Made by a program: the position numbers and the translations under genes
The notes under the pieces: generated by a model
What the model saw: only the letters and a program-made list of their open reading frames with translations
Told to the model about the DNA's origin: nothing
Databases searched by the model: none
Assembly: GCA_016187495.1 (NCBI GenBank)
Contig: JACPJP010000012.1
Coordinates: 81,150 to 145,149 of the forward strand
DNA length: 64,000 nt
DNA from: Candidatus Woesearchaeota archaeon
GTDB taxonomy: Archaea > Nanobdellota > Nanobdellia > Woesearchaeales > GW2011-AR4
Reading direction: 5' to 3'
Shown: in pieces, positions 9,627-33,675 of the stretch
How the letters are laid out: every line of letters begins with the position of its first letter
Numbering within the stretch: position 1 is the stretch's first letter

Positions 9627-9672
9627 TCAAATAGAAATTTAAGTGTGAACCTTGGGGTGGAAATTAAATAAA

Positions 9673-12600: not shown

Positions 12601-14514
12601 AACCTATCTGGAATTTTAACAAAAATAAACTTTACACTATCTGGAACAAAAGCACAAATAGGCATTGTTACAGAATTAGAAGTAGATGGGGGCAATGTAA
12701 TAAACTTTACTTTGTTCGCCACTGACACAAGCAACAATATAAGGCAAAATTCAACATTAATAACAGTAGCAGATACAAATCCGCCAGTTATCTCATTAGT
12801 ATCCCCTTCAAACAACTCAGTACAAGAAGTCGGCACTATTATAAATTTGAGCATAACTGATTATACAGATATTTTTGCTTGGTATAAAAACGAAAGCATA
12901 AATGCAACAATAAACTCTCCTTATGATATCGACACAAGCAATTGGTCAAAAGCCGAATATGAAATAACCGTTTACGCTAATGACAGCTCTGGGAATATTA
13001 ATTCACAATTCTACAGATTCATATTTGATAGCAGGCCAGTTATAAATACAACCCCTATTAATTCGACTTTGGAAGATGAGATTTATAGTTATGATGTAAA
13101 TGCAACTGACTCTGATGAAGATAAATTAAATTATTCCTTAGTATTAAATCCAACTGATATGGTTATAAACTCCAGCAATGGGATAATTAATTGGACACCT
13201 ACCAATTCGCAGGTAGGCAATCATTCTATTGTAATAGAAGTGTCTGATGGCAACTTGTCTGCAAACCAGTCTTTCAATTTAACAGTAATAAATGTAAATG
13301 ATATTCCTATCCTTAGTTTTATACCTGATATCATAGTAAATGAAACTGATTTAGTAGACATCAATGCAACTGGAAACGTTTCAGCAACAGATGTAGATGG
13401 AGATAATTTGATATATTCATATTCCCCACCTTTAAACAGTTCAGGTCAATGGCAGACTAGCTTTACAGATGCAAGAAATTACATCATAACAGTAACTGTA
13501 AATGATAGCAATGGAGGAATAGATTCACAAGAAGTTAATATTACGGTACTTGATAAAACTAAGGGAGCTAATGATACGGTAGTGGGAAACCTAAGTGATA
13601 TTAAGACTACAATACCCAACCTTGGCTTAAGAATTAACAATACGGTCTTTAATTTGAGTAAAGTTATCCTAGGAGTCAATAGAATCAATTTCACAGATAG
13701 TAATGAGACAGTAATCGAATTTGACTTTGAGTTCTCAAACACTTCAAAGTTTAATTTTCTTGATATTGAGATAAATAATACATTTTTCAATGGGAGCCAA
13801 AGCATAATAATCAAAGGAATCAATTTGACCTCGCAGGGGAGGACAAAAACCGCTTACATAAATAGAACCAATACCACTTACAATTCTGTTTGTATTAGAG
13901 ATGTTGAATTAAGTTCTGTTACTGAAATTACGTCTGATTGCAGTGGCTCTGATGAAACAAAGCTTGCATGTGATGGAGTCCCAACGAATGGCTATACCTG
14001 CGCACTTCAAGGCACGCTTTATAGAATCACGGGTTTGAGCCATTCCGGAATAAAACAGTTATCTTACACAAGAACTTCTGATAGTTCAGGCGGCGGAGGT
14101 GGAGGGGGAGGCGGGGGTGGTGGTCGTGGTGATGTTGGAGGCTTAGTAGGCTCAGGAGAATCTTACGTCTGCAATATGGATTGGGATTGTTCAGGGTGGT
14201 CAGAATGCAAAAATGGATGGGAGACGAGAGAGTGCTCTTTTGTAGAAATTGCTCAGCATACCTCAAATGAGGCATGTGCCTCTATTAATAATGTCCCGCA
14301 AAGAGCCAGAAAATGTGAGACCCGTCAAGAACAAGAGATTAGTAAAGAAGAAGAAACTGAAAGAGAAACTGTGCCTAATGAGCCTAAAGTCCCTCGAATC
14401 ACTGGCCTGGCTGTTGGATATGTAGGGGAGCCAAATAAACTTGTTGGTACAATCATAACCACGGCTATAGTTATTATTGGCGGTTTTTTTTATTATAGAT
14501 TTTTTAATTTATAG
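9673..14514 (+). CDS. Giant (about 1613 aa) sequon-saturated cell-surface protein: signal peptide, 7 tandem ~98-102-aa Ig-like repeats, DNRLRE/CBM96-like insert, cadherin-like domain, poly-Gly, Cys/Trp knot, C-terminal TM anchor
   Basis: The track ORF starts at TTG 9652; the ATG at 9673 (MRSWIVLISLLPILIFIFGTVYVQA) has a better Shine-Dalgarno motif and signal peptide. Hand count: about 115 N-X-S/T sequons. Repeats are anchored on PP(I/V)VN..INISANI(T/S)DET.LLSANITYN.SG.LTK(V/I)NF.LSG..AQI. The TWNNQP motif falls near aa 460. A cadherin-like block (YSYDVNATDSDEDKLNYSL..INWTPT..) follows, then G12 and a C-terminal helix TIITTAIVIIGGFFYY. Confidence 0.9.
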   Translation: MRSWIVLISLLPILIFIFGTVYVQATTIELKKPGNFSINNILSRNINFTFNSTWSFGESDPTPHENISNCSLWINGTNPAIEWDIVKNASIDSVGEDNKILNGSAGLSYMNFTFASDGNYTYAVSCLNFTNASVDSKLAFSSNFSFFIDTTPPTIDIFIPNNSRIAPNSTVNITADISDETGLLSANITYNISGILTKVNFTLSGKSAIIHNVTNFIGSLGDVINVTVYAADTQNNVGQDSTLVTLVDIHPPSVAVSINNTSPGVNDIINISATISDETGLISANITYSIEDVLTKVNFSFSGNIADIANILAAIHNVTAINGRKGEKIKFFVYATDVYNNIGNSSAFVVLPSITSSEAFGDPQSFIVADSQVNKGNPDTNDGSDNSIMVMTSNPNEVRGYWLLNISNVTGTVTDATFQCKINRQGSGVTIEVYWSNGTFSESGITWNNQPCGTTENSTDLPCNQTVLSDHEVDFEAQGTRNLTFDILKAVKIAHEQVFYDKHLILMIRHQSEATISQDTQFYSKENLNPENKCGLYMVTQDLTFPIVNTSINNTLPSFNDIINISANISDETRLLGANITNNLSGILAKVNFTLNGTTAQIHDITQITTGAGSVINFTVYAIDANNNVKQNSTLITVIDIIPPIVNATFNTTSHLVDDIINISANITDETELLSANITYNISGALTKINFSLSGTSAQISNKTQIICAETCVINFTVYATDASNNVKQNSTLLAVADVTPPVINTAFNATYPRNIEAINFTGNVTDGNGLLLANWTINFSTGKLFMNYSLSGNSAQISNTTTLLGLAGGTVLNFTFYATDISNNVNQNDTLLTISDAIPPIVNATFNVSSPTVNSVINYTANITDETELLSANWTVNLSTEKVLANYSILGTAVQVSNTTSLSYCTETCVLNFTIYATDTSNNVNQNSTLITVADITPPVVNTTFNITSPVINGVINFSGNITDGVGLLSANITYNLSGILTKINFTLSGTKAQIGIVTELEVDGGNVINFTLFATDTSNNIRQNSTLITVADTNPPVISLVSPSNNSVQEVGTIINLSITDYTDIFAWYKNESINATINSPYDIDTSNWSKAEYEITVYANDSSGNINSQFYRFIFDSRPVINTTPINSTLEDEIYSYDVNATDSDEDKLNYSLVLNPTDMVINSSNGIINWTPTNSQVGNHSIVIEVSDGNLSANQSFNLTVINVNDIPILSFIPDIIVNETDLVDINATGNVSATDVDGDNLIYSYSPPLNSSGQWQTSFTDARNYIITVTVNDSNGGIDSQEVNITVLDKTKGANDTVVGNLSDIKTTIPNLGLRINNTVFNLSKVILGVNRINFTDSNETVIEFDFEFSNTSKFNFLDIEINNTFFNGSQSIIIKGINLTSQGRTKTAYINRTNTTYNSVCIRDVELSSVTEITSDCSGSDETKLACDGVPTNGYTCALQGTLYRITGLSHSGIKQLSYTRTSDSSGGGGGGGGGGGGRGDVGGLVGSGESYVCNMDWDCSGWSECKNGWETRECSFVEIAQHTSNEACASINNVPQRARKCETRQEQEISKEEETERETVPNEPKVPRITGLAVGYVGEPNKLVGTIITTAIVIIGGFFYYRFFNL
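10126..10725 (+). repeat. Coding tandem repeat array A (2 units, about 297-306 bp each) inside the giant surface-protein gene
   Basis: Units begin at the Pro-Pro codons 10126 and 10423 (TTPPTIDIF / IHPPSVAVS). Confidence 0.8.
11305..12780 (+). repeat. Coding tandem repeat array B (5 units, period 294-297 bp) inside the giant surface-protein gene
   Basis: Unit anchors are at 11305 (FP), then 11599, 11893, 12190 and 12487 (PP), closing at PP 12781. The units are diverged in sequence but keep exact phase. Confidence 0.85.
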
Positions 14515-15511
14515 TTTTAACAGCATTTGCAATCTTATCAATATCCCATTCTGCCGGGTAAGTGCATTTTGTCTTGTAAGAACAATAATCTTTCCCTTTC
14601 CCAACAATTTTTATTCCCCTGCCATAATTTTCGATTTCTGCTGCACTAGTTGGGTAGTAGAAAGATACAATATTCTTCTTCAATGCAGTCCCAATATGCA
14701 ATGCCAAGCTATCGGATGTTACCAAAATATTGCATAAATTAACCAAAGAAGCGAATTCCATCAATGAGTTATCACAACCAGCGTCAATAATCTTGCCTTT
14801 TGCTGTTTTTTTTATCTTTTCATTCCTTTCTTTTTCCTCTGGGCCACCAAACAATAATAATTTTGCATTATCTATACTTTCATTTAACTTGTCAATCAAT
14901 TCGGCAGTTTCTTCTATGCTTAATTTTTTGTCCTGCCATCTTCCTCCTGCGCCAGTGTTTATGCCAATGATTTCATCATTGCTTTTCATATTATTCTTTT
15001 TTGCAAAATTTTCGCCAAAATTTATTTCATCCTTTGTTAAACCTAATATCGGCTCTTGTTTTTTGTAATCCAAATCAAGAATTTCATACATTATTTGCTG
15101 ATATGTTTTTTTGTTTTTGGCTTTTAATTCATCTGCCTTTTTCTTGCCAAACTTTGAGATTAAGCCAATGTCAAACCATAATGAGGAATTTTGCGTATAA
15201 ACTCTTTTTCCATTGTCCAAATAAGCGCCAATAAGCTCTTTATGGCTGATTTTTGCGGCTAGAGTGCATGCCTCATTGTCATCGTCCAAACTAATTATTA
15301 AGTCATATTCGTTATTTTCTATTTTTACAATATCATTGTCGATTAAAAATAGTTTATTAATGAAATTATTATTTTTTAAGACATCAAAGGATTCTTTCTT
15401 TGTGAGCCAGTCTATTCTGCAATTTTTGTATTTTTCCTTTAGCCCCGAAAGAATGGAAGTAGTCCTGATTACATCCCCTATTGCGCCTAATTTTATTATT
15501 AGTATGTCCAT
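14504..15511 (-). CDS. GT9 family glycosyltransferase (heptosyltransferase-like)
   Basis: 335 aa. N-terminal MDILIIKLGAIGDVIRTTSIL; C-terminal ..LVTSDSLALHIGTAL.., the GT9 pattern. The 3' end overlaps the giant surface-protein gene by 11 nt (convergent). Confidence 0.75.
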   Translation of the reverse strand: MDILIIKLGAIGDVIRTTSILSGLKEKYKNCRIDWLTKKESFDVLKNNNFINKLFLIDNDIVKIENNEYDLIISLDDDNEACTLAAKISHKELIGAYLDNGKRVYTQNSSLWFDIGLISKFGKKKADELKAKNKKTYQQIMYEILDLDYKKQEPILGLTKDEINFGENFAKKNNMKSNDEIIGINTGAGGRWQDKKLSIEETAELIDKLNESIDNAKLLLFGGPEEKERNEKIKKTAKGKIIDAGCDNSLMEFASLVNLCNILVTSDSLALHIGTALKKNIVSFYYPTSAAEIENYGRGIKIVGKGKDYCSYKTKCTYPAEWDIDKIANAVKTIN

Positions 15512-17374: not shown

Positions 17375-18988
17375 ATGGAAGTCAATAAAAGGCACCTTGA
17401 GGCAGCAGCATTTATTGCAGTTTACCTGTTTATTCTTTATCTGTGGACGCTGCCTTTCCAGGACAATCAAGTGCCTTATGGGGAATTTGATGCTATATCC
17501 CATTGGGAGCTTGCAGACTTTATTGAGCAGCTTGACAGGACTTTTATTTATTTGCCTCCTTTTCTGGATTATTCTTACGGTGGCGATAACCAGTTCAAGC
17601 CGCATACCTTATGGTACCATCCACCTTTCCATACAGATTTAGCAATAATCTCAGCTTTCGCTCCAGGAAGGGTTGTCCCGATTTTTTTGACAAATGCAAT
17701 TTTTGCAACAGCAATCTTAATTTCAGTTTTCTTTGTCATCAGAAGATTGTATGGATTTCTTCCTGCTATCCTATCATCGTTGCTGCTTGGCTTTTCCATG
17801 AGAGACCTAATGCCTTACCTTTGGGGACAATGGCCGGAGAGGTTTGGCTACGCTTTTACCCCTTTGATCTTATACTGTTTTTATACCTATTATACTACTT
17901 ATACTAAAGAAAAAAGCAGTCCAATATACCTGCATATAACTGGGATTTTACTCGCTATTGAATTAATGGTACACCCGCTTTCATTTTTTCATTCCCTTGT
18001 GGGCATTTTTGTTTTGGGAATAGCTTTGCTGATAAAAACGAGAAAATTGCCTATGAATTGGAAGCATATAGGAATAACGATAGTTTTGTTCCTGATCCTT
18101 CTAGCTATATTCCCCTACCAAACTGGAAATGTAATAAAGTCTTTCAGCGAGGATTCAAAAAGAGAGCATGAATACCCTTCCTTGTCAAGACTGTTCAATT
18201 GGGCTCCTGACCCAAAGGATTTTATTGGTTCTGTTCCCGAATCTTATTTCTCTTTTAGGGAAATGAATGGAATCTGGACGCTGCCTTTTTTGCTTATGGG
18301 GATTCTCTTTTTGGTTGTCAGGAGAGAAAACCGCGATATACTCCTGTTAGCATGGCTGATTAGCCTGTATTTGATCCTGCATAGGGATTTCATAGGAAAA
18401 TTTTTCTTTTTGCATAGGTCTTTATCCGCTACTGCGCATATTTTTGCTCCCATAACGGTTATAGGGGCGTTGTCAATACACTCATTAATTAAGCTGCCCA
18501 ATAACTATAGCAGATTTTTGAAATATGGTGCTGCAGTTTTAGTTGTGGCTTTGGCTTTTATGTATAATTTTCCACAGGCGCAATCTACGCTCCAGAATGC
18601 TTATGATAGCCCATTGATAAGACTGAATCCTGCTCAAATAGAAGTAAGCCAGTGGCTTAAGAACAATTTAAATGAAAATCAGAATGTTTCAGTTATAGGA
18701 CCTCCTTCCGAAATAATGCAGAAGGTATGGTGGATGGCGTCCTTTTCCCATAGAACAAGTTTCTTTTTTGAGGGCTTCTTGACATGGAAGACATTTAAAG
18801 AAAACAGGGAAGAAACGATAAAATATCATCTGCTTAATGACTATATTGTTTTTGACTATTCAGATATTGCGTTATTGTCTGACGGGAGCTTGGTTGAGCA
18901 ATGGCTGGAATTTGAGAAGCAAAACATGGGAAATCACACATTGCTTTACAACAAGGACAATATAAGGGTGTATAAATATGAAGGATGA
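17375..18988 (+). CDS. Uncharacterised polytopic membrane protein, GT-C-like (paralogue of 20498-22159)
   Basis: 537 aa. Multi-TM N-terminal two thirds plus a soluble C-terminal domain. Blocks shared with the paralogue: YGEFDAISHW / YGASDAFQHQ, YHPPF..LAII / IYPPV..LAIM, LWGQWPERF / LWGHWPSVL, and VSQWLKNN / LSWIRDNT. Confidence 0.7.
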   Translation: MEVNKRHLEAAAFIAVYLFILYLWTLPFQDNQVPYGEFDAISHWELADFIEQLDRTFIYLPPFLDYSYGGDNQFKPHTLWYHPPFHTDLAIISAFAPGRVVPIFLTNAIFATAILISVFFVIRRLYGFLPAILSSLLLGFSMRDLMPYLWGQWPERFGYAFTPLILYCFYTYYTTYTKEKSSPIYLHITGILLAIELMVHPLSFFHSLVGIFVLGIALLIKTRKLPMNWKHIGITIVLFLILLAIFPYQTGNVIKSFSEDSKREHEYPSLSRLFNWAPDPKDFIGSVPESYFSFREMNGIWTLPFLLMGILFLVVRRENRDILLLAWLISLYLILHRDFIGKFFFLHRSLSATAHIFAPITVIGALSIHSLIKLPNNYSRFLKYGAAVLVVALAFMYNFPQAQSTLQNAYDSPLIRLNPAQIEVSQWLKNNLNENQNVSVIGPPSEIMQKVWWMASFSHRTSFFFEGFLTWKTFKENREETIKYHLLNDYIVFDYSDIALLSDGSLVEQWLEFEKQNMGNHTLLYNKDNIRVYKYEG

Positions 18989-19313
18989 GGTAGAGAAGTA
19001 TAGGGCTATAGGAATTATTTTAATTGTGGCAATGACATTTTTCTACTTCATACTAGGTTTAGACGGAATGATGTCTGTTTTAGGCATTTTCTTATTGTTT
19101 ATTGCGCCAATATATTTCATATTGGGCAACTTCAGCTTAGAGGAGGACGAGAAGCTAGCCTATTCTTTCTTCATCGGAGTGGGAATATTCCCGTCATTGG
19201 CGTACTGGATGGGCTTATTCATCTCTTTTAAGATAGCTATATCAATATCTTTTATCATTATGGTCGTAATGGGCTTTTTAATAAGAGGTTATATGGGTAA
19301 AAAACATGCTTGA
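18978..19313 (+). CDS. Small 4-TM membrane protein (DUF1616-N-terminal-like), partner of the 537-aa protein
   Basis: 111 aa. Overlaps the upstream gene by 11 nt. LFIAPIYFILG..AYSFFIGVGIF parallels LFVVPGYFLML..IERTVAGIGIS of ORF 20161-20535. Confidence 0.6.
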   Translation: MKDEVEKYRAIGIILIVAMTFFYFILGLDGMMSVLGIFLLFIAPIYFILGNFSLEEDEKLAYSFFIGVGIFPSLAYWMGLFISFKIAISISFIIMVVMGFLIRGYMGKKHA

Positions 19314-20034
19314 GAATTACTTTAAATATTTGTATAATGATGTGGTTTCCGCATCCAGGGAAAAATTTATGCAGATGTTGGATGGTCCTGTAGATTCACT
19401 GCTTGACCTTGGGTGCTGGGATGGAGCAAATACAATAAGGTATGGAAAAAAAGCCCATGCAAAGAAACTTTTTGGGATAGAAATTGAAGAAACTAAAGCC
19501 AAAATTGCCTCTAATAAATGGATTAAAGTAAAACTTTCAAATCTAAATGACAGGTTTCCATTTAAGGATAATTCAATGGATGTTGTTGCAGCAAACCACG
19601 TTATAGAGCATCTGACGCAAACAGAGCTTTTTATAAGTGAGATTTATAGGGTGCTGAAAAAAAACGGATATGCGGTAATTGCTACACCTAACCTCGCAAG
19701 CTGGCATAATGTGTTTGCTTTAACTTTTGGCATACAGCCTTTTTCAGGACCGCATGTAAGGACTTCAAATCATGATATAAAATCCATTAGTGAAATGGAC
19801 GATTATAAGGTAAAGAATCTGCTGAAAAGCACGGAGAAAGGAAAAGATTACCTAAGGCATCTGGTTGTAATGACCTACAAGGAGCTTATAAAAAATCTTA
19901 GAAAAGCAGGCTTTGTCATCGAAAAAAGCTACGGCTTTGGGTATTATCCGCTACCTTCCTTATTGGCAAATTTGTTCGCAAAAATTGATATAAGGCATTC
20001 GCATTATGTTGTGGTTAGGGTAAGAAAGAGATGA
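19306..20034 (+). CDS. Class I SAM-dependent methyltransferase (Methyltransf_11-like)
   Basis: 242 aa. Motif I LLDLGCWDGANT; post-I and motif II VVAANHVIEHL; LKKNGYAVIATPN. Confidence 0.85.
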   Translation: MLENYFKYLYNDVVSASREKFMQMLDGPVDSLLDLGCWDGANTIRYGKKAHAKKLFGIEIEETKAKIASNKWIKVKLSNLNDRFPFKDNSMDVVAANHVIEHLTQTELFISEIYRVLKKNGYAVIATPNLASWHNVFALTFGIQPFSGPHVRTSNHDIKSISEMDDYKVKNLLKSTEKGKDYLRHLVVMTYKELIKNLRKAGFVIEKSYGFGYYPLPSLLANLFAKIDIRHSHYVVVRVRKR

Positions 20035-20160
20035 AGTTATAGTTTCTTGTTGGTGGCTCATAGAGCAACGAAATAGTATCTTCTTTGTGTTGGTGTTACA
20101 AATATTTAAATAAGATTCTGGCAGCGCGGGCATATCAAATCCCTGCCTCTCGTATCTTTC

Positions 20161-20535
20161 CTAATCCAATTTTTTTAAATTTATAATAACCCCCGCAAAT
20201 ATCATTATCAAAGGCAATACTATAGCATGAAATCTAAGATTTAATCCAGCCAAGCTGATGTAATAACTAAATATACCAATTATTGCAGCCGATATGCCAA
20301 TCCCGGCAACTGTCCTCTCAATAAAATCAAGGTTATTTTTCCAATAAAGCATTAGGAAATAGCCTGGGACTACAAACAACCAAAATATGGCAACTACGCT
20401 TCTAAGCAATACAATTGAATTTTCCCTGAAAAATGCGATTTTAAAAGCTGTTAAAGCCAATAAAAATAAAATCCCAAGATATTTGAGCTCTTTTATGTCA
20501 AAAATTTCCTTCTTCAATACAATCTCCTCCAACAT
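20161..20535 (-). CDS. Small 4-TM membrane protein (DUF1616-N-terminal-like), partner of the 553-aa protein
   Basis: 124 aa. Overlaps the upstream gene by 38 nt. The VVPGYFLMLYW..FIERTVAGIGISAAIIG pattern is present. Confidence 0.55.
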   Translation of the reverse strand: MLEEIVLKKEIFDIKELKYLGILFLLALTAFKIAFFRENSIVLLRSVVAIFWLFVVPGYFLMLYWKNNLDFIERTVAGIGISAAIIGIFSYYISLAGLNLRFHAIVLPLIMIFAGVIINLKKLD

Positions 20536-22159
20536 TATTGCTTTTCAATACCACGACTGCCTCATTTTCAAAAACAACTTCAGCGCCTTTTTTTAACATT
20601 TCATTTGCTATCAGCAGATTATACTGGGCCAGCACATTCTGTCTGGAAACTTTGTCAAATACATAATAATCAAAATTGCATATACTCTTTAACCCAAAAT
20701 TAAAGCCAGAAGGCAAATCCGGGCTTGTAAAATGGAAGAATGACGGCCTTTGATAAAATGAGCCTGCTGTATCCCCGGGGAACTCAGTTATATACTCTTT
20801 CTTTATCTTTCTTTCCTGCAAAGCTTTTACGAAATCTTCCGGATCAACCTGCTGGTGTATTCTTTTGGTGTTTCTTAAGACGGCATCCTGACTGTATATA
20901 TCGCCATAAAAAAAATACACAGTTGCATCCTTTGGAGTATTATCCCTGATCCAGGAAAGCGATTCCCAATGAAATGGGCTCATTAATCCAGGGCTTGTTT
21001 CCCTATTAAGATAAGGGATATAGGGTATTGTTTGTATGTCTGTTTGCATTAATGCCGGAAATTTTACTATTCCTGAAAACAGCACAAGCAAAATTATAAA
21101 TGAAGCTGAAGCATACATCAAATTCCATTTTTTTATGGCAAATTTGGACGTAGCATAAATGCCGAATCCCAGAAAAAATGACAAATATATCGGCCAGAAA
21201 AATCTCAGTTGGAATGACCTGACTTCAAAACCGATATAATTCATATAGCTTCCGATGAGCATTACAATGGGCGCAATAATAGCAACATGCAGTGCCTTTA
21301 TTTCAGATATGGAAAAAATAAGTCCAATTGCAATAGGAATAAGCAACAACCCGAAGCCCGCTATATAGAATCCGGGATTTCCATCCCATAACGGCTGCAC
21401 TGCAAAAACAAAGGGCTGCTTTACCGCCCATGTATTTATAAATATGACAAGGTAATAGAATGATATTATCAGGAATATCATCCCGGCTAAAGCCATGTTT
21501 ATAAATTCTCGCTTTGTTAATTTTTTGAATGCCAGCCTCAGGCCAAAGAATATTGCCATGAAAATTATTGCAAAAATTGTTTCTGAGGTGTGGGTGAGCG
21601 CTGTTGCAGATATGGCTATAGCTATTAATATAAATGAATGCTTTATTTCCCTTCTAAGTATGGACCAAAAGACCAGAACTACGAATGACTGGGATAGGAC
21701 GGAAGGCCAGTGCCCCCACAAGAATCCTGTTGATGCAGGGAATGAGAAGATAAGGATTGAGAGGGGCAGCGACAAGATAGCAACAGTTTTGTTAAATTCC
21801 TTGATAACAAAATACATGATAAGCGCTGCAATTACAGCAAAAAATACAACAACGAAATAGATGGCATCATAAATTTCGAGGCCTGAAGAGTAGGAGAGCA
21901 TGATTGCCAACTGGTACATCACTGGAGGATAGATTATGACAAAATCCTTAAATCCTTTCACAATGTAAGGGGCCTCAAACCTGTTTCCGATGTCCTTAAT
22001 GGCTTCTGTCCTTACCTGGTGCTGGAATGCATCTGAAGCCCCATAAGCAAAAGGAAAATCGTGCTTTATCTTGTGGTCAAACAGTATTCCAGGACCTAAA
22101 TAAAGCATCACTATAAAGAAAGTAAGCAGCAGTATTTTTTCTATTCCTATTTTTGCCAT
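20498..22159 (-). CDS. Uncharacterised polytopic membrane protein, GT-C-like (paralogue of 17375-18988)
   Basis: 553 aa. Same architecture and conserved blocks as 17375-18988 (see that entry). Confidence 0.7.
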   Translation of the reverse strand: MAKIGIEKILLLTFFIVMLYLGPGILFDHKIKHDFPFAYGASDAFQHQVRTEAIKDIGNRFEAPYIVKGFKDFVIIYPPVMYQLAIMLSYSSGLEIYDAIYFVVVFFAVIAALIMYFVIKEFNKTVAILSLPLSILIFSFPASTGFLWGHWPSVLSQSFVVLVFWSILRREIKHSFILIAIAISATALTHTSETIFAIIFMAIFFGLRLAFKKLTKREFINMALAGMIFLIISFYYLVIFINTWAVKQPFVFAVQPLWDGNPGFYIAGFGLLLIPIAIGLIFSISEIKALHVAIIAPIVMLIGSYMNYIGFEVRSFQLRFFWPIYLSFFLGFGIYATSKFAIKKWNLMYASASFIILLVLFSGIVKFPALMQTDIQTIPYIPYLNRETSPGLMSPFHWESLSWIRDNTPKDATVYFFYGDIYSQDAVLRNTKRIHQQVDPEDFVKALQERKIKKEYITEFPGDTAGSFYQRPSFFHFTSPDLPSGFNFGLKSICNFDYYVFDKVSRQNVLAQYNLLIANEMLKKGAEVVFENEAVVVLKSNNVGGDCIEEGNF

Positions 22160-22482: not shown

Positions 22483-24750
22483 TTATCGCCTTTTTATTTT
22501 TGAATAAACAATATAAGCTAAGTATGCAATCAGTATTAAGATAGTTATTGATGTAATCATTTTTCCCGTTCTGAAGGATGAAGGATTATACTCAAATGCC
22601 AATTCCCCCCTTTCGCCCTCCAGGTAAACCGCACTTACAACAATGTTTGCTTTATAAATCTTTAATTCTTTTCCGTTTAATGTGGCTTTCCATCCTGGAA
22701 AATGTGAGAATTTCTCACTCAACACTAACCACCCTCTTTCTCCATTGAGATTAATGTAAAATTCATTTACAGATTTTTGCCTTAATTCCAGCTCTTTTTT
22801 GGAAGTTTTAGGCCCAGCCAGATTATCAAATAGATTGTTAATATCCTCTTGAGCAATAGTGTTTTTGCCTTCGAGAATGTTAGGAAGTAAGTTTCCACCA
22901 TTATTCGCATATTGCTGCAAAGATGAAATATCATTTTGCGCAACAGAATTGCTGAGCAGTATCAGGGCATTGAATTTTTTCAGCTCCTCGATTTTATAAT
23001 CAGCTACAGAGCTTTTGTCCCGTATTAATACAGATGATAACGGGTTTAGGTTGTTTATTATCATGCTGTAGGATAATTCCATTGCATTCTTGCCGTTCCC
23101 TAAAAGCAGGATAGCATTATCAACAACTAAAGCCCTTGGAACCACATTCCTATTTTCATAGAGATAAGGCCCGTATGCTTCCACTATTTTGCATTCATCA
23201 CATTTCTCAAAAGTGCCTTTTAGCGTTAAGCCGGAATCGTCCAGCTTCCTGTCAGAGATTATGTACTTGCCATTTAAGATTCCATACATTTTTGATGGCG
23301 ATGCCTGCTGTGCAACTGCAAGGTATTGCACATAATCATTTACCCAAATACCGCCTCCGCCTTTTATTTCGGGAATGCCGAGCTGACTATAATAATTATA
23401 GCCAGATGCTCCTATTGGGGTTGAGAGCGCATAGGTCGCTACCCTAAAATCGCTTTTGTCCTTGCTCACTTCGTTGAGTATTGGTATGCTAAGCGGTCTT
23501 GTAACTTCTGCAGAAACGGGAAATTCCTGCAGCAATACCAGTTCAACAGTCAAAACCAATACAATAGCTGAAAAAACGAGCCATTCCCTAAAATTTTTAT
23601 TGTACTTTCTTAGGATGTTTACTAAATTATTGAAGCCATAAGCAACAATTATCGGAGCTATAAAAACAAACATTACCAAAGCCCGCTCAATATGCCTCAT
23701 CTGCCCAAATCCAGGAAGATGGTAGAGTAAGTTAGCGGCAAAAGTTCCTGCCGCTAATAGTATAGACAAAATAATTATTGATAAACAGAATATAACCATT
23801 CTTTTTCTGAGGCTTAACAACCCAAATAATAAAAGTATGAAAGGAGCTATTCCTATGGCTCCTGAGAAACTAATATCACTTGAGGCGTTAATCAATGAGC
23901 TCCATAAGTTAGCCAGGAGTATTGGCTCACCAAGAAATTCCTGATAATTAACACCAGCGGCCCTACTAGACATTTGTGTAAACTCAAGGACAGGCAATAG
24001 CTTTAGCGCGGACAATCCAAATAATAGGAATATTATAACCGCAGAGACAATTATTGCCCTCAAAAGCCTTTTCTTGAAATTTTTTCCGATTAAACTCCAT
24101 GCTATGTAAAGCCCGGTTATAAGCCAAGTATAGAGGAAGAAAACTACTCCTCCGGCATAAACCATCATCGAAAAGAAAAATGCAGCAATAGTAGAATTCA
24201 GTAACCATTTCCCGCTGTTCAGAGCTTTATAAGCGAACAAAAAAACAAAAGGCATCAAAGCATAGCTCTCCAATATGTTAAGATGCCCGTTTAATATAAA
24301 TGTGTGCATTAATCCGTTGAACATGAATATTATAGAGGCAATAAAAGAGGCATTCTTTTTCTTGACAATCTCGTACGCGAGAAAATACATTCCCAATCCA
24401 GCGAGAAAAAAATAGCTTATCACAGCCAGATTCATTGAAAGGAAAATGTTTCTAAACAAAAGTATGTAAAGAAAATTTAGATCAAACAGATAATGCTCAG
24501 GTATAGCAATAAATGGCTGTCCTGCATAGAAATAGGGGGTCCATAATGGAAATCCGTTAGATTCAAAAAGGAATTTCCTTATGTTCTCAGACTGGAAAGT
24601 CATGTCATTTACGTAATGTATATTGCCTAGGGTCTTTGAAGAGCTTAAGATTGAGGAAAAAAATGCCAAACTCAGCAGAAGCAGTATAAAAATATAAAAA
24701 TGAGATTTTGCAAAACTTTTTAGCTTATAGGTAATCAATTCCTTTTTCAT
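22483..24750 (-). CDS. YfhO-like polytopic GT-C glycosyltransferase
   Basis: 755 aa. N-terminal D..Q...-PLW-P..Y.G.P pattern (VNDMTFQSENIRKFLFESNGFPLWTPYFYAGQPF). About 13 TM helices, a large extracytoplasmic domain and one final C-terminal TM, as in YfhO-family proteins. Confidence 0.6.
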   Translation of the reverse strand: MKKELITYKLKSFAKSHFYIFILLLLSLAFFSSILSSSKTLGNIHYVNDMTFQSENIRKFLFESNGFPLWTPYFYAGQPFIAIPEHYLFDLNFLYILLFRNIFLSMNLAVISYFFLAGLGMYFLAYEIVKKKNASFIASIIFMFNGLMHTFILNGHLNILESYALMPFVFLFAYKALNSGKWLLNSTIAAFFFSMMVYAGGVVFFLYTWLITGLYIAWSLIGKNFKKRLLRAIIVSAVIIFLLFGLSALKLLPVLEFTQMSSRAAGVNYQEFLGEPILLANLWSSLINASSDISFSGAIGIAPFILLLFGLLSLRKRMVIFCLSIIILSILLAAGTFAANLLYHLPGFGQMRHIERALVMFVFIAPIIVAYGFNNLVNILRKYNKNFREWLVFSAIVLVLTVELVLLQEFPVSAEVTRPLSIPILNEVSKDKSDFRVATYALSTPIGASGYNYYSQLGIPEIKGGGGIWVNDYVQYLAVAQQASPSKMYGILNGKYIISDRKLDDSGLTLKGTFEKCDECKIVEAYGPYLYENRNVVPRALVVDNAILLLGNGKNAMELSYSMIINNLNPLSSVLIRDKSSVADYKIEELKKFNALILLSNSVAQNDISSLQQYANNGGNLLPNILEGKNTIAQEDINNLFDNLAGPKTSKKELELRQKSVNEFYINLNGERGWLVLSEKFSHFPGWKATLNGKELKIYKANIVVSAVYLEGERGELAFEYNPSSFRTGKMITSITILILIAYLAYIVYSKIKRR

Positions 24751-26185: not shown

Positions 26186-26743
26186 TTATACCTTATCCAC
26201 AACAAACATAATGTGCTCTACACCAGGGTAAAACCATTGTTTTTCCACCCCTCTTTTAATCTTTATTATTTTTAGATTCAATTTTTTGAATTCTTTGATC
26301 CACTGGCTTATACTTCTGAAGTTTAACGGTGTATCAACACCATGTAGTCTGTTAAACAGAATATCCAGCGGTTTTGTCAATAAGCTGTCTGCATTGTCCT
26401 CGAATATTATACCCCTTTTTTTTGATACCCTTATGCATTCTTTTAATAACCCTGTGGGATCGTCTGCATGGTGCAACACATAGCATACAAGCACTGTATC
26501 AAATGAGCCTGCTTTGAATGGTATCCTTTTGCCGTCATATATTTTTAGAGGCAGGTCTGTAAGGTTATGGTCCTTAACATCAAGGCATTGTACATTTTTT
26601 CCGTATTTCGAAATTTCCTTTGCTATGTAGCCTCTTCCGGAACCGACATCCAAAACACCGCCAATAATGTATTTACCGCATTCTTCATAGATTTTTTTGG
26701 CTTTGTTTGTGCATAATTCCTTGTAGATTTTGCTTATCATCAT
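26186..26743 (-). CDS. Class I SAM-dependent methyltransferase
   Basis: 185 aa. Motif I VLDVGSGRGYIA; VLVCYVLHH. Confidence 0.8.
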   Translation of the reverse strand: MMISKIYKELCTNKAKKIYEECGKYIIGGVLDVGSGRGYIAKEISKYGKNVQCLDVKDHNLTDLPLKIYDGKRIPFKAGSFDTVLVCYVLHHADDPTGLLKECIRVSKKRGIIFEDNADSLLTKPLDILFNRLHGVDTPLNFRSISQWIKEFKKLNLKIIKIKRGVEKQWFYPGVEHIMFVVDKV

Positions 26744-27471
26744 AACCCGTATTTTCCCAACAATTGGTTTAACTTTATCTCAAAAAGCTCCTTTAGCGTT
26801 GCAAAATGGCTTTGCCACGTGACTTTAGTTCCTTCGCAATAGGTCCAGTTTACAGGCATCTCCTTTATCTTATAGCCGTTTTTTTGCGCCAGGAATAATA
26901 CTTCAAAATCAAACCCAAAGCCTCTTATCCTTGATAATGAAAAAAGCTTCCTTGCAATATATCCATTGAATAGCTTAAAGCCGCATTGCGTATCCTTTAT
27001 CTTTCTGATTAATAGCAATCTCAGCAGGACATTTCCCAAGTTTCCTAGTATAACTCTGGACACTAGCTTTTTCTTGACAACAGAATCCTTATGTTCCCTG
27101 GAACCTATAATTATATCATAGCCATTAATTTGCGGCATAAAATTGTCAAGCTCGGTTATTGGAGTTGAGGTATCTGCATCTGCAAACAAAACAAGACTTC
27201 CTTTTGAAGCCAAAACCCCTTTCTTGATTGCATATCCTTTGCCCTGTTTTTTAGGGTTATATACATATCTAATATTTTTGTATCTTTTTGAATAATCTTT
27301 GACCACTTCTAATGTCCTGTCTCTGCTTTTGTCAGCCACGATAATTATTTCATTCTTTAATTTTCTTTTTTTAAGATAGATTAGCATCCTATTTAGCGCT
27401 TCCGGCAGCCTTTTTTCCTCATTATAAGCGGGGATAATTATAGATATCATCTTAAATTTATAGTGAAGCAA
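26740..27471 (-). CDS. Family-2 glycosyltransferase (dolichyl-phosphate glucosyl/hexosyl synthase, ALG5/GtrB-like)
   Basis: 243 aa. ISIIIPAYNEEKRL..FADADTSTP. 4-nt overlap with the downstream MTase gene. Confidence 0.85.
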   Translation of the reverse strand: MLHYKFKMISIIIPAYNEEKRLPEALNRMLIYLKKRKLKNEIIIVADKSRDRTLEVVKDYSKRYKNIRYVYNPKKQGKGYAIKKGVLASKGSLVLFADADTSTPITELDNFMPQINGYDIIIGSREHKDSVVKKKLVSRVILGNLGNVLLRLLLIRKIKDTQCGFKLFNGYIARKLFSLSRIRGFGFDFEVLFLAQKNGYKIKEMPVNWTYCEGTKVTWQSHFATLKELFEIKLNQLLGKYGL

Positions 27472-27541: not shown

Positions 27542-28159
27542 ATGTTGCTTGTGCTTATGAGCAGCAAATTAAGGATTGAGTACAATAAGAATGCATGCAT
27601 AGGAAATGGCAGATGCGCAGCAATAGCTCCGGACCATTTTGAGCTGAAAGGCAAGAAAGCAAAATTACTAGACTCAGGAATAAATGACGGGCTCTATAGC
27701 AAGGAAGTAAAATGCGGAGAGACTGCTGCAAAAGGCATTATCGATGCTGGAATAGCATGCCCTGTCAACGCAATCAGAATTTTTGATTTGGATAAAAATG
27801 AAGACATTGCAGGCTTTAAGGTTGAAGGCAAGGGGGCTAAGGAGATAATCGCCCTTTATGATGACAAAAAGGAATTTGTAATTGATGGCAAGAACTATTT
27901 TTTAATAAGGTTGGACAGGGAAAACAAAAATATAGAAGTTGGATTCTGCAAAGATAAAAATAAGATTGCATTAAAGGTCGTAGGGAAAAAGCCAGTGGAC
28001 ATATACCAGACAATGATAAATAAGGAAAAGCTTCCGATACGGAAAGATCATGCAGCATATCTTGGCAGGGAGCTGCAGAAAGCTTATATTGCCTTAAAAA
28101 ACAATCTTGAGTACGTGCAGGACGATGAATTGGATTTGAATAAGAAACCTAATCAGTAA
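27542..28159 (+). CDS. Ferredoxin-like domain fused to a DUF4346-like domain
   Basis: 205 aa. EYNKNACIGNGRCAAIAPDHFEL matches the single-cluster ferredoxin pattern. C-terminal ..HAAYLGRELQKAYIALKNNLEYVQDDELD resembles DUF4346. The likely start is the Met at 27557. Confidence 0.55.
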   Translation: MLLVLMSSKLRIEYNKNACIGNGRCAAIAPDHFELKGKKAKLLDSGINDGLYSKEVKCGETAAKGIIDAGIACPVNAIRIFDLDKNEDIAGFKVEGKGAKEIIALYDDKKEFVIDGKNYFLIRLDRENKNIEVGFCKDKNKIALKVVGKKPVDIYQTMINKEKLPIRKDHAAYLGRELQKAYIALKNNLEYVQDDELDLNKKPNQ

Positions 28160-30807: not shown

Positions 30808-30868
30808 AAATATCACCTCTTATAATATAAACATATTAGCATATATTTATGGGTAATGGTAAGATCTC

Positions 30869-32370: not shown

Positions 32371-32376
32371 TTTAGG

Positions 32377-33393: not shown

Positions 33394-33675
33394 TATAATT
33401 CGGCAAAATAAGATAATTATAAACGTTTTGGTAGTGTTATGCAAAGTTTCCAACTGCGCAAGGGCTTTTGGCGAAGGGAAGGGTAGCGTCAAGATGTGAG
33501 CATTTGTTAAATAACAAGCGCATTGACAGAGGGGTTGCTCACGGACGTCCACCTCCTCTTTTGATATGCTTTGCAAAGGGGCTCGACTTCAAGGCTGCTA
33601 AACACATACCCCGTTTAGATAGATTTTAATATAAAGATACGAAAACTCTCAAGATATAATGGGGTAGCAAGAAAT

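What the first reader, a model, noticed from the sequence alone, without database searches (positions are those of the whole stretch)
17375..22159. Duplicated two-gene module: ~540-aa GT-C-like polytopic protein plus overlapping ~115-aa 4-TM partner, convergent around a methyltransferase
Seen: 17375-18988 (537 aa) with 18978-19313 (111 aa) on the + strand. Its mirror, 20498-22159 (553 aa) with 20161-20535 (124 aa), is on the - strand. Each small gene overlaps the end of its large partner, by 11 and 38 nt. The large proteins share collinear blocks (YG..DA..H in loop 1, (Y/I)(H/Y)PP, LWG(Q/H)WP, and a soluble domain starting ..(V/L)S(Q/-)W(L/I)(K/R)(N/D)N..). The small proteins share LF.(A/V)P.YF and a G(V/I)GI helix. 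I cannot place the large proteins in a named family. Their layout (acidic first loop, multi-TM, extracytoplasmic C-domain) is GT-C-like and loosely echoes AglB. Inference: an undescribed heteromeric extracytoplasmic glycosyl- (or other group-) transferase, duplicated for two substrates.
Basis: partly seen in the sequence, partly recalled or inferred. Interest (0 to 1): 0.66.

Follow-up and report, generated by a model that had tools for sequence, protein, structure and literature searches.

The report
Paired archaeal glycosyltransferases with small partners
Two related membrane sugar-transferring enzymes in an uncultured Woesearchaeota archaeon each carry their own tiny four-helix membrane partner gene, and this four-gene block is conserved across the lineage, pointing to an undescribed two-subunit form of a known enzyme class.

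Summary
All four ORFs exist at the stated coordinates. The two large proteins are paralogues (hhalign 96%, E 4e-9), and so are the two small ones (93%, E 5e-7). An AlphaFold model of large protein A matches only GT-C glycosyltransferases in the PDB (AglB/STT3/PglB, ALG12, ArnT, DPY19; E to 2e-7). It has 11 TM helices, an invariant E-x-D after TM1 and an invariant R-x10-P motif. It is not family-less: it passes Pfam DUF6541, and NCBI names some orthologues "GT39 family". In 47 species-level Woesearchaeota/Nanoarchaeota genomes the large-small adjacency is kept in 44/45 (A) and 37/37 (B) cases with overlapping reading frames. LA and sA co-diverge specifically (r=0.81). The central methyltransferase is not conserved: it is variable cargo. 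The small proteins form a new, unannotated 4-TM family with no GtrA, SMR or DUF2304 match and no PDB fold match. There are weak but consistent hits to the DUF1616 membrane region and to the N-terminal part of DUF6541 that the large proteins lack. Best reading: two Dol-P-sugar-dependent GT-C enzymes, each with a dedicated small membrane subunit, inside a large surface-glycosylation island. A flippase role for the small proteins is the main rival. This is a new variant of a known kind and of moderate interest.

The parts
17375..18988 (+). LA: 537-aa GT-C-fold glycosyltransferase of Pfam DUF6541 type. 11 TM helices, N-in/C-out, first external loop with invariant P34-Y-G-E37-x-D39-A-x-S-H43, invariant R348...P359, and an extracytoplasmic alpha/beta C-terminal domain (about 419-537).
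   Evidence: ORF. Pfam DUF6541 34.3 bits, above the cut-off of 29. AF2 model pLDDT 71, pTM 0.71. Foldseek PDB top 27 hits all GT-C, E to 2e-7. Invariant columns.
18978..19313 (+). sA: 111-aa 4-TM partner of LA. Its start overlaps the LA stop by 11 nt. Invariant P44 and E58, conserved LPxY...ExEK motif.
   Evidence: ORF. Adjacent to LA in 44/45 loci with 4-29 nt overlaps. Alignment of 43 orthologues. Co-divergence with LA r=0.81, partial r=0.80, Mantel p=0.0005.
19306..20034 (+). Class I SAM-dependent methyltransferase, overlapping the sA stop by 8 nt. It is variable cargo in the gap between the two small genes, not a conserved part of the module.
   Evidence: Methyltransf_11 E 3.9e-16. Absent from this position in most related loci: in 27/38 the sA and sB ends are within 50 nt; in 11 there are inserts of 0.3-5.6 kb with other genes.
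20161..20535 (-). sB: 4-TM partner of LB and paralogue of sA. 124 aa from ATG 20535, more likely 118 aa from TTG 20517. Invariant W52, P57-G58, W65, E73-R74, H103, P108.
   Evidence: ORF. Adjacent to LB in 37/37 loci. AF2 model pLDDT 87.7, pTM 0.79: an amphipathic N-terminal helix plus four TM helices. 453 unannotated homologue clusters of about 120 aa. hhalign vs sA 92.6%.
20524..20530 (-). Shine-Dalgarno-like GGAGGAG inside the last codons of LB, 7-13 nt upstream of the probable TTG start of sB (20517). Implies translational coupling of LB and sB.
   Evidence: Read directly from the sequence. The alignment shows most orthologues start at the residue aligned with this TTG. The modal overlap is 20 nt.
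20498..22159 (-). LB: 553-aa paralogue of LA (GT-C fold by homology). No Pfam hit of its own. Invariant Y39, S42-D43, H47, G149-H-W151, R314/R319...P323. The C-terminal domain has two invariant cysteines (C494, C547).
   Evidence: ORF. hhalign vs the LA family 96%, E 3.6e-9, 389 columns. 100% identical to NCBI HYW19_01965, 'hypothetical protein', Ca. Woesearchaeota. Invariant columns.
22483..24750 (-). Context: 755-aa YfhO/PTPS_related-type GT-C, conserved directly upstream of LB on the same strand. It co-diverges with LB.
   Evidence: Pfam PTPS_related 27.8 bits and YfhO C-terminus. Present next to LB in most loci. LB~YfhO r=0.72.
14504..15511 (-). Context: GT9-family glycosyltransferase, conserved upstream of LA and divergent from it.
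   Evidence: Glyco_transf_9 E 6e-17. Conserved position in most loci.
26740..27471 (-). Context: short (242-aa) GT2 whose closest solved relatives are polyprenyl-phosphate sugar synthases. A likely source of lipid-linked donor. A second one lies at 28149-28856(-).
   Evidence: Best PDB relatives are P. furiosus Dol-P-Man synthase 5mlz (E 4e-15 and 4e-19), GtrB and ArnC, and both window proteins lack the C-terminal TM helices. Homologues abut LB or sA in 6-8 other genomes.

Best explanation
The region encodes two paralogous extracytoplasmic GT-C glycosyltransferases of the uncharacterised DUF6541 type (LA and LB). Each is co-translated with its own small four-helix membrane protein (sA, sB), and the two-gene unit was duplicated as a unit. 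I propose that each small protein is a dedicated subunit that packs against its 11-TM GT-C partner. I also propose that each pair transfers a single sugar from a dolichyl-phosphate-sugar donor, made by the short DPM1/GtrB-like GT2 enzymes of the same island, onto a cell-surface glycan or glycoprotein on the outer face of the membrane. In other words, this would be an archaeal multi-component transmembrane glycosylation system. What is shown: the paralogy, the GT-C fold and catalytic-type motifs, the conserved module, the overlapping frames, the LA-sA co-divergence and the glycosylation context. What is inferred: physical complex formation, the donor lipid and the acceptor.
For: Fold: the LA model hits only GT-C enzymes in its top 27 PDB matches. 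It has 11 TM helices, N-in/C-out. E37-x-D39 just after TM1 and R348-x10-P359 are invariant, matching the GT-C hallmarks in PMC6801728. LB is homologous over 389 columns. Module: LA-sA are adjacent in 44/45 and LB-sB in 37/37 species-level loci, with 4-44 nt frame overlaps in nearly all, and also in the more divergent L052. There is an SD motif inside LB upstream of the sB start. Pairing is paralogue-specific: both gene types duplicated together. LA-sA co-diverge specifically (r=0.81, partial 0.80, p=0.0005), whereas LA-LB give only 0.20. The small-protein requirement seems tied to this GT-C type: the island's two other GT-Cs (PMT_2 and YfhO-like) have no small hydrophobic neighbour. Weak fusion evidence: sB residues about 49-114 match DUF6541 profile positions 3-65, while LA covers positions 96-409 of the same profile; reversed-sequence controls gave 0/10 such hits. 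Donor supply: the GT2s are closest to Dol-P-Man synthase, GtrB and ArnC and recur next to either pair. Context: the 64-kb window is a glycosylation island with a 1620-aa sequon-rich surface protein and two true AglBs.
Against: No direct evidence of a complex: AlphaFold-multimer was not available, and no natural fusion was found among the top 150 of 762 family representatives or among the 120 listed (best-scoring) of 453 sB clusters. The DUF6541 N-terminal and DUF1616 matches are all below the curated cut-offs (best E 0.005 and 8e-4), and sA members show neither. LB-sB co-divergence is not specific (r=0.41, partial 0.20-0.37); LB tracks the YfhO-like neighbour instead (r=0.72). One divergent genome has a solo LA-like gene with no sA (L046). 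LB keeps only the single Asp of the E-x-D motif. The LA model is only moderately confident (pLDDT 71), with a poorly modelled first external loop. Donor and acceptor are entirely inferred.
Confidence: 0.5

Rival explanations
1. The small proteins are dedicated flippases (scramblases) for the dolichyl-phosphate-sugar donors. They would be functional analogues of GtrA/GtcA or ArnE/ArnF in bacterial three-component systems, rather than structural subunits. The GT2 makes Dol-P-sugar in the cytoplasm, sA/sB flips it, and LA/LB transfers the sugar outside.
For: The composition matches the canonical trio of GT-A, small 3-4 TM protein and GT-C (PMC8035078). Co-directional GT2->LB->sB units with 4-8 nt overlaps occur in L002 and L013 (also L044 and L052), and LA->sA->GT2 occurs in L006 and L007. 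Size and helix count (about 115 aa, 4 TM) resemble GtrA-type proteins. No Wzx/MOP- or GtrA-type flippase was found in any scanned ORF of the 64-kb island. Charged residues are conserved at the membrane boundary (E58-K59 in sA, E73-R74 in sB).
Against: No sequence similarity to GtrA, SMR/EamA or any transporter family in 80 members scanned at E<=1. No fold match in the PDB (best E=4). Known GtrA-type flippases are shared among several GT-Cs rather than paired one-to-one, whereas here two paralogues are each locked to one GT-C. The PMT_2 and YfhO-like GT-Cs in the same island have no such neighbour, so donor flipping evidently does not require one. The strong LA-sA co-divergence suggests physical contact.
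Confidence: 0.27
2. The small proteins are membrane anchors or activators for the TM-less DPM1-like GT2 synthases, analogous to GacJ (DUF2304) with GacI or to DPM2/DPM3 with human DPM1. They would be linked to the GT-C genes only for co-regulation.
For: At least two of the short GT2s in the window (234 and 242 aa) lack the C-terminal membrane helices of their closest solved relatives (PfDPMS, GtrB, ArnC). Such GT2s recur beside the pairs in several genomes. The TM2-TM3 loop with its conserved charges is predicted to be cytoplasmic if both termini are inside.
Against: GT2 linkage is loose: only 8/46 loci have one within 300 nt, against about 100% for the GT-C partner. The island has a bona fide GT2+DUF2304 pair (43641-44638, E 1e-21), and sA/sB show no DUF2304 similarity. 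The Foldseek match of sB to the PfDPMS TM domain is insignificant (rank 13, E 8.6). sA co-diverges with LA.
Confidence: 0.08
3. All four proteins form one complex built around an LA-LB heterodimer, comparable to the obligate Pmt1-Pmt2 heterodimer. They would not be two independent enzymes with different substrates.
For: LA and LB are almost always encoded together in convergent orientation: 37 loci carry both, and only about 3 loci with more than 4 kb of downstream sequence lack LB. PMT-type GT-Cs are among the structural matches.
Against: LA and LB barely co-diverge (r=0.12-0.20), whereas LB tracks the YfhO-like gene (0.72). Their C-terminal domains are not alignable beyond about residue 441. 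Variable cargo is inserted between the two halves. Some genomes have LA-sA without a nearby LB (L025, L042).
Confidence: 0.08

Closest known systems
Bacterial multi-component (three-component) transmembrane glycosylation systems: GtrA/GtrB/GtrC, CsbB/GtcA/YfhO, ArnC/ArnE-ArnF/ArnT
   Same: A polyprenyl-phosphate sugar synthase of GT2 type, a small 3-4 TM membrane protein of about 110-130 aa, and a multi-pass GT-C enzyme that works on the outer face of the membrane (PMC8035078). Gene overlap between the GT-C and the small gene also occurs in arnT-arnE (own knowledge).
   Different: The small proteins are not GtrA- or SMR-family members. They are paired one-to-one with a specific GT-C paralogue and co-diverge with it, whereas GtrA-type flippases are shared. 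The GT2 is only loosely linked. The host is archaeal, so the lipid would be dolichol rather than undecaprenol (inference).
Pfam DUF6541 (PF20176), an uncharacterised family of predicted GT-C membrane proteins
   Same: LA scores above the curated cut-off (34.3 vs 29 bits), and most LA orthologues carry the precomputed hit. NCBI names one orthologue 'DUF6541 family protein'.
   Different: LA covers only profile positions 96-409 of 646. LB does not reach the threshold. The N-terminal approximately 95 profile positions are absent from LA/LB and are weakly matched by the separate small protein sB instead, which suggests a split architecture. The C-terminal domains differ.
Oligosaccharyltransferase catalytic subunits AglB / PglB / STT3 (GT66)
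   Same: They are the best structural matches of the LA model (3wak E 2e-7, TM-score about 0.47-0.53). They share the GT-C core, an acidic residue after TM1, and an extracytoplasmic C-terminal domain.
   Different: There is no STT3 Pfam match and no WWDYG motif in LA/LB. LA has 11 rather than 13 TM helices. Its soluble domain is much smaller. Two genuine AglB genes are present in the same window. Eukaryotic OST has small TM subunits, but sB matches none of them significantly.
AglS of Haloferax volcanii, a Dol-P-mannose mannosyltransferase that adds the last sugar to the N-glycan outside the cell (own knowledge; the papers were listed but not read)
   Same: An archaeal membrane enzyme that uses a Dol-P-monosaccharide to decorate an already exported glycan, which is the kind of reaction proposed here.
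   Different: AglS is not known to have a small partner protein. No sequence comparison could be made here because no AglS sequence was available.
GacI/GacJ (GT2 + DUF2304 small membrane protein)
   Same: A small 3-TM protein encoded next to, and acting with, a glycosyltransferase of a transmembrane glycosylation pathway. A bona fide example is present in this window at 43641-44638.
   Different: GacJ partners the cytoplasmic GT-A, not the GT-C. sA/sB have no DUF2304 similarity.
Pfam DUF1616 (archaeal membrane proteins, e.g. HVO_2173)
   Same: 23/37 sB members give weak hits in consistent register (profile positions about 4-107) to the N-terminal membrane region of DUF1616 (best E 8e-4). None of 10 reversed controls did.
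   Different: All hits are below the curated cut-off (19 vs 31.6 bits). sA/sB lack the approximately 200-residue soluble part of DUF1616. sA shows no hit. DUF1616 itself has no known function: HVO_2173 is only known to be an AglB-dependent N-glycoprotein (PMC8241124).

Membership tests
GT-C glycosyltransferase superfamily (fold level) | Polytopic membrane protein with 7-13 TM helices, N-terminus cytoplasmic, C-terminus extracytoplasmic (most families have 11 TM) | tested here: met
   The AF2 model of LA has 11 long TM helices plus a soluble alpha/beta C-terminal domain. Hydropathy and charge distribution are compatible. Definition from PMC6801728. For LB this is inferred through homology, not modelled.
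GT-C glycosyltransferase superfamily (fold level) | DxD/ExD-like acidic motif shortly after TM1 in the first extracytoplasmic loop | tested here: met
   In LA, E37-F-D39 is invariant in 20 orthologues, 7 residues after TM1. D39 is invariant across both families. LB keeps only this Asp (S42-D43), so for LB the motif is reduced to one acidic residue.
GT-C glycosyltransferase superfamily (fold level) | Conserved Arg in a short late external loop, followed by a Pro in the next TM (Rx4-14P, predicted donor phosphate binding) | tested here: met
   R348 and P359 (LA numbering, R-x10-P) are invariant in the joint 41-sequence LA+LB alignment. R348 lies in the loop 336-349 between TM9 and TM10 of the model.
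GT-C glycosyltransferase superfamily (fold level) | Structural similarity to solved GT-C enzymes | tested here: met
   Foldseek vs PDB: ranks 1-27 are all GT-C enzymes, 20 of them with E<=1e-3, best 2e-7, TM-score (query) 0.42-0.53. Caveat: model pLDDT is 71 and rmsd values are high.
GT-C glycosyltransferase superfamily (fold level) | Uses polyprenyl-phosphate-linked sugar donors with inversion of configuration | not testable with these tools
   Only contextual support: DPM1/GtrB/ArnC-like GT2 genes in the island and next to the module in other genomes.
Pfam DUF6541 (PF20176) | Score at or above the curated gathering threshold (29 bits) | tested here: met
   LA scores 34.3 bits, E 1.1e-8, but covers only profile positions 96-409 of 646. 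LB of this window has no hit (not met for LB); a few LB orthologues carry a precomputed hit.
Oligosaccharyltransferase STT3/AglB/PglB (GT66) | STT3 Pfam domain, WWDYG motif, 13 TM helices | tested here: not met
   No PF02516 hit at E<=1 for LA or LB. No WWDYG in either sequence. 11 TM helices. Two genuine STT3 proteins in the window score E 2e-47 and 1e-23.
GT39 protein O-mannosyltransferase / PMT_2 (the NCBI name for some orthologues) | PMT or PMT_2 domain above threshold; MIR domain in the large loop of true PMTs | tested here: inconclusive
   The window's LA has no PMT_2 hit at E<=1, although about 25 of the listed orthologues carry a precomputed PF13231 hit. There is no MIR domain. Pmt4 is only rank 22 in the fold search. 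The GT39 label appears to be a generic GT-C transfer.
GtrA-like flippase family (PF04138), tested for sA/sB | Sequence membership in the GtrA family | tested here: not met
   0 of 37 sB and 0 of 43 sA members hit PF04138 at E<=1. This lowers 'is a GtrA', not 'works like a GtrA'.
SMR/EamA (ArnE/ArnF-type) small transporters, tested for sA/sB | Sequence or fold similarity to SMR/DMT 4-TM proteins | tested here: not met
   No Multi_Drug_Res or EamA Pfam hit in 80 members. No significant fold match of any kind in the PDB search (best E=4).
DUF2304 (GacJ-type GT2 partner), tested for sA/sB | Pfam PF10066 membership | tested here: not met
   0 of 80 members hit it, whereas the window's true DUF2304 protein (43641-43973) scores E 1.3e-21.
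DUF1616 (PF07760), tested for sB | Score at or above the gathering threshold (31.6 bits) over the approximately 307-position domain | tested here: inconclusive
   Best score is 19.1 bits, E 8e-4. 23/37 members give weak hits in a consistent register (profile positions 4-107 only). 0/10 reversed controls did. sA gives 0/43. Possible distant homology to the membrane part only.
Multi-component transmembrane glycosylation system (system level) | Co-occurrence of a polyprenyl-P-sugar-forming GT-A, a small membrane protein and a GT-C | tested here: met
   All three kinds are in the island. They are in the same operon in L002, L013, L044, L052 (GT2-LB-sB) and in L006, L007 (LA-sA-GT2). Flippase activity of the small component is not testable here.

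The most novel reading that the evidence does not exclude
sA/sB define a new family of obligate, paralogue-specific small subunits of prokaryotic GT-C glycosyltransferases. This would be the first heteromeric GT-C outside eukaryotic OST/PMT-type complexes and mycobacterial Emb-AcpM. It would have arisen by splitting off the N-terminal helices that are fused in full-length DUF6541 proteins. Alternatively, sA/sB could be a new family of dolichyl-phosphate-sugar flippases, an activity whose protein identity remains unresolved in archaea and eukaryotes (own knowledge).
Probability: 0.3. Interest if true: 0.7.

Novelty: new variant of a known kind. Interest (0 to 1): 0.45.

Why it matters
GT-C enzymes in bacteria and archaea are generally treated as single-subunit catalysts, with any small membrane protein in the pathway assigned a flippase role. 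Here there is a lineage-wide, strictly one-to-one pairing of a GT-C with a co-diverging 4-TM protein from an unannotated family (453 clusters, no Pfam). That offers a tractable case for asking whether small membrane proteins can be integral parts of prokaryotic GT-C enzymes, or whether they represent a new class of lipid-linked-sugar flippase. It also gives a functional hypothesis for two uncharacterised Pfam families, DUF6541 and possibly the membrane part of DUF1616. Finally, it maps the core of the surface-glycan machinery in Woesearchaeota, which are uncultured DPANN archaea whose cell surface presumably mediates contact with hosts (inference). The practical payoff is modest until a biochemical test is done.

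Tried and rejected
(1) Sequence profiles of LA, LB, sA and sB against all PDB chains: no hit even at E<=10.

(2) Foldseek of the high-confidence sB model against the PDB: nothing significant. I therefore rejected fold-level kinship to GtrA/SMR-type transporters, OST small subunits or the PfDPMS TM domain.

(3) Search for natural large+small fusions. Profile search of 1.84 billion representatives: 762 relatives, and the top 150 are all 246-609 aa with no N-terminal extension of about 100 aa. The sB search returned only proteins of about 120 aa. No fusion was found, and the lists were saturated by close relatives, so bacterial full-length DUF6541 proteins could not be retrieved.

(4) tblastn of LA and sB against 72,556 annotated plasmids, aimed at fetching annotated DUF6541/DUF1616 genes: no match.

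(6) Literature searches for DUF6541, DUF1616, PF20176 and PF07760: only one glycoproteomics paper, which lists a DUF1616 protein as an N-glycoprotein.

(7) Rfam scan and promoter/terminator scans: uninformative.

(8) Considered and rejected: LA/LB as the N-oligosaccharyltransferase (true AglBs are elsewhere); the methyltransferase as a core component (not conserved); the small ORFs as spurious overlaps (conserved in 44 and 37 species with invariant residues).

Full report
**1. Observation**

- LA 17375-18988(+), 537 aa
- sA 18978-19313(+), 111 aa
- sB 20161-20535(-), 124 aa
- LB 20498-22159(-), 553 aa

A class I methyltransferase lies between them at 19306-20034(+) (Methyltransf_11, E 4e-16).

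LA and LB align by BLASTP over their N-terminal 175 residues (25% identity, E 5e-6). As family profiles they align over 389 columns (hhalign 96%, E 3.6e-9). The columns invariant across both families are Y35, D39, H43, P83, G151, W153, H200, R348, P359 and W427 (LA numbering).

sA and sB align at E 1e-4 pairwise and at 92.6% probability, E 4.7e-7, as profiles. Each profile retrieves members of the other family and nothing else among all ORFs of the window and 52 related loci.

One refinement concerns the sB start. On the minus strand a GGAGGAG motif (20530-20524) lies 7-13 nt upstream of a TTG at 20517, and this TTG aligns with the 'MKKE' start of most orthologues. sB is therefore probably 118 aa, overlapping LB by 20 nt. 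That is the modal overlap in related genomes (21 of 37).

**2. Organism and context**

LB is 100% identical to a 'hypothetical protein' of a Candidatus Woesearchaeota MAG (HYW19_01965). All relatives come from Woesearchaeota/Nanoarchaeota (DPANN) assemblies.

The whole 64-kb window is a surface-glycosylation island. It encodes:
- nucleotide-sugar epimerases/dehydratases, an aminotransferase and methyltransferases;
- GT2, GT4 and GT9 enzymes;
- a 1620-aa sequon-rich secreted protein;
- four GT-C-type proteins: a PMT_2 protein at 5461-6969, LA, LB, and a YfhO/PTPS_related protein at 22483-24750;
- an MBOAT + DltD-like pair;
- two genuine STT3/AglB genes (44692-47835 and 58236-61166).

LA and LB are therefore not the N-oligosaccharyltransferase.

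**3. What the large proteins are**

LA passes Pfam DUF6541 (34.3 bits against a cut-off of 29), covering profile positions 96-409 of 646. Orthologues also carry PMT_2 hits, and NCBI names some 'glycosyltransferase family 39 protein' or 'DUF6541 family protein'. The family is therefore catalogued, although uncharacterised: full-text searches for DUF6541 and PF20176 returned no paper.

No PDB chain is detectable by sequence profile.

An AlphaFold2 model of LA (pLDDT 71, pTM 0.71) has these features:
- 11 long TM helices;
- a long first external loop with short helices;
- a soluble alpha/beta domain at the C-terminus.

Foldseek against the PDB returns only GT-C enzymes in ranks 1-27: AglB 3wak at E 2e-7, then STT3, PglB, ALG12, ArnT, DPY19, AftA, ALG9 and Pmt4.

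The GT-C hallmarks listed in PMC6801728 are present. An acidic E37-x-D39 motif follows TM1 by seven residues. An R348-x10-P359 motif spans the short loop before TM10. Both are invariant.

LB has no Pfam hit in this genome but is clearly homologous. It keeps the Asp, the His, the GxW motif and the R...P pair. Its distinct C-terminal domain has two invariant cysteines, consistent with an extracytoplasmic disulfide (the disulfide is an inference).

**4. What the small proteins are**

Both are real, conserved genes:
- 43 sA and 37 sB orthologues from distinct species align with invariant residues: sA P44 and E58; sB W52, P57-G58, W65, E73-R74, H103 and P108.
- A database search finds 453 sB clusters of about 118-138 aa. 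All are 'hypothetical' or 'uncharacterized membrane protein', and none has a Pfam domain.
- The sB model is confident (pLDDT 87.7, pTM 0.79). It shows an amphipathic N-terminal helix followed by four TM helices.
- The model has no significant structural neighbour in the PDB (best E=4).

No member hits GtrA, SMR/EamA or DUF2304 at E<=1.

The only recurrent signals are weak:
- 23/37 sB members match the N-terminal membrane part of DUF1616 (profile positions about 4-107 of 307, best E 8e-4).
- 7/37 match DUF6541 positions 3-65 (best E 0.005). This is exactly the N-terminal segment of that GT-C family profile that LA does not cover.
- Ten reversed sB sequences gave neither hit.

This suggests, but does not establish, that small plus large protein correspond to a split version of a longer DUF6541 protein. 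I could not retrieve full-length DUF6541 proteins to test it.

**5. Conservation of the module**

A scan of one genome per GTDB species gave 47 loci. The results were:
- sA follows LA in 44 of 45 loci with enough downstream sequence, overlapping by 4-29 nt in all but one.
- sB follows LB in 37 of 37 loci, with an overlap that is typically 20 nt.
- The common order is GT9(-), LA(+), sA(+), sB(-), LB(-), YfhO-like(-), UDP-GlcNAc 2-epimerase(-).
- The methyltransferase is not conserved. In 27/38 loci the two small genes end within 50 nt of each other. In the other 11 the gap holds 0.3-5.6 kb of variable genes.
- A more divergent contig (L052) also has the full set, including an sA ORF that the gene caller missed.
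- One divergent genome (L046) has a solo LA-like gene.

Pairwise-identity matrices show specific co-divergence of LA and sA: r=0.81, partial r=0.80 after controlling for LB or the YfhO-like gene, Mantel p=0.0005. LA-LB gives only 0.20.

LB-sB co-divergence is not specific (r=0.41). LB instead tracks the upstream YfhO-like gene (r=0.72). I cannot explain this difference.

**6. Mechanism**

What is shown:
- two paralogous GT-C enzymes with catalytic-type motifs;
- each translationally linked to a paralogue-specific 4-TM protein;
- a location inside a glycosylation island.

Donor supply is plausible. The two short GT2s tested (26740-27471 and 28149-28856) are most similar to P. furiosus Dol-P-Man synthase (E 4e-15 and 4e-19), GtrB and ArnC. 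Homologues abut either pair in other genomes: GT2->LB->sB with 4-8 nt overlaps in L002 and L013, and LA->sA->GT2 in L006 and L007. This is the composition of bacterial multi-component transmembrane glycosylation systems (PMC8035078).

I favour the small proteins being bound subunits of their GT-C (about 0.5) over their being dedicated Dol-P-sugar flippases (about 0.27). The reasons are:
- The pairing is strictly one-to-one and was kept through the duplication.
- LA and sA co-diverge.
- Known GtrA-type flippases are shared among several GT-Cs.
- The two other GT-Cs of this island have no small hydrophobic neighbour.
- The weak DUF6541 N-terminal match hints at a fused ancestor.

In favour of the flippase rival, no Wzx/MOP- or GtrA-type flippase was found anywhere in the window.

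A role as anchor of the TM-less GT2s (about 0.08) is disfavoured. GT2 linkage is loose (8/46 loci), and the island already has a classical GT2+DUF2304 (GacI/GacJ-type) pair at 43641-44638.

A single LA-LB heterodimeric complex (about 0.08) is disfavoured by the lack of LA-LB co-divergence.

**7. Comparison and novelty**

At fold level the large proteins are members of the GT-C superfamily, and all testable defining features are met for LA. LA is also a member of Pfam DUF6541. They are not OSTs. The 'GT39' label is a generic transfer.

The small proteins belong to no described family. The system works like a three-component glycosylation system, but it differs in having a non-GtrA small component locked to each GT-C.

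I rate it a new variant of a known kind. The GT-C assignment is unsurprising and already implicit in the annotation. The conserved partner family and the possible split-DUF6541 architecture are new but biochemically untested. Interest 0.45.

Noticed in passing
window 43641-44638 (-): A textbook GacI/GacJ-type pair. A short GT2 (219 aa, 43976-44638) is immediately followed by a DUF2304 small membrane protein (109 aa, 43641-43973, E 1.3e-21). The pair sits between a GT9 gene and an AglB gene. It suggests that the 'soluble GT2 + small membrane activator' solution for making lipid-linked sugars, known from streptococci, is also used in DPANN archaea.
   Followed up: partly
window 44692-47835 (-) and 58236-61166 (-): Two STT3/AglB oligosaccharyltransferase paralogues (1047 and 976 aa; STT3 E 2e-47 and 1e-23) lie within 14 kb of each other in a small DPANN genome.
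   Followed up: no
window 30952-33576 (-): An MBOAT acyltransferase (E 1e-32) is followed by a DltD-like protein (E 4e-7). This resembles the bacterial systems that O-acylate or D-alanylate surface polymers, and is unexpected in an archaeon.
   Followed up: no
window 29452-30816 (-) and 38825-39655 (-): There are mobile-element-like genes inside the island: a Tn5-type DDE transposase, and a free-standing LAGLIDADG endonuclease ORF in the lowest-GC stretch of the window (GC 0.30 at 38-40 kb).
   Followed up: no
window 9652-14514 (+): A 1620-aa secreted protein made of repeated approximately 90-residue modules. It is extremely rich in N-x-S/T sequons and has a poly-Gly stretch and a C-terminal TM anchor. 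It is a likely major glycoprotein substrate of the island.
   Followed up: no
loci L002-L047 (24 loci with all genes): LB co-diverges with the upstream YfhO-like GT-C (r=0.72) far more than with LA (0.20) or with its own partner sB (0.41). This suggests that LB and the YfhO-like gene evolve or are exchanged as a block, possibly as a variable 'serotype' cassette.
   Followed up: partly
loci L007, L009, L010, L014, L021, L025, L027, L031, L033, L034, L036, L039, L047: Thirteen 'binchicken' TPA assemblies titled 'uncultured Methanosarcinales archaeon' carry this Woesearchaeota-type module with up to 72% identity. The organism name in these records is probably a placeholder or a mislabel.
   Followed up: no
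gap between sA and sB: window 19314-20160; L003, L005, L007, L012, L045: The short gap between the two convergent small genes acts as an insertion hotspot for variable glycan-modifying genes (methyltransferases, GT2s and others; 0.3-5.6 kb in 11 of 38 genomes). In this window the inserted methyltransferase overlaps the sA stop by 8 nt.
   Followed up: partly
window 15653-17311 (+): A 552-aa protein with an N-terminal lipoprotein-like signal and a weak cupredoxin-like segment lies directly upstream of LA. Homologues occupy the same position in only 3 of 47 loci (L020, L027, L029).
   Followed up: no
window 20498-20517 (-): The last seven codons of LB (…C-I-E-E-G-N-F) are nearly invariant across orthologues. 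They coincide with the SD motif and the first codons of sB in another frame, so this is a conserved dual-coding stretch.
   Followed up: partly
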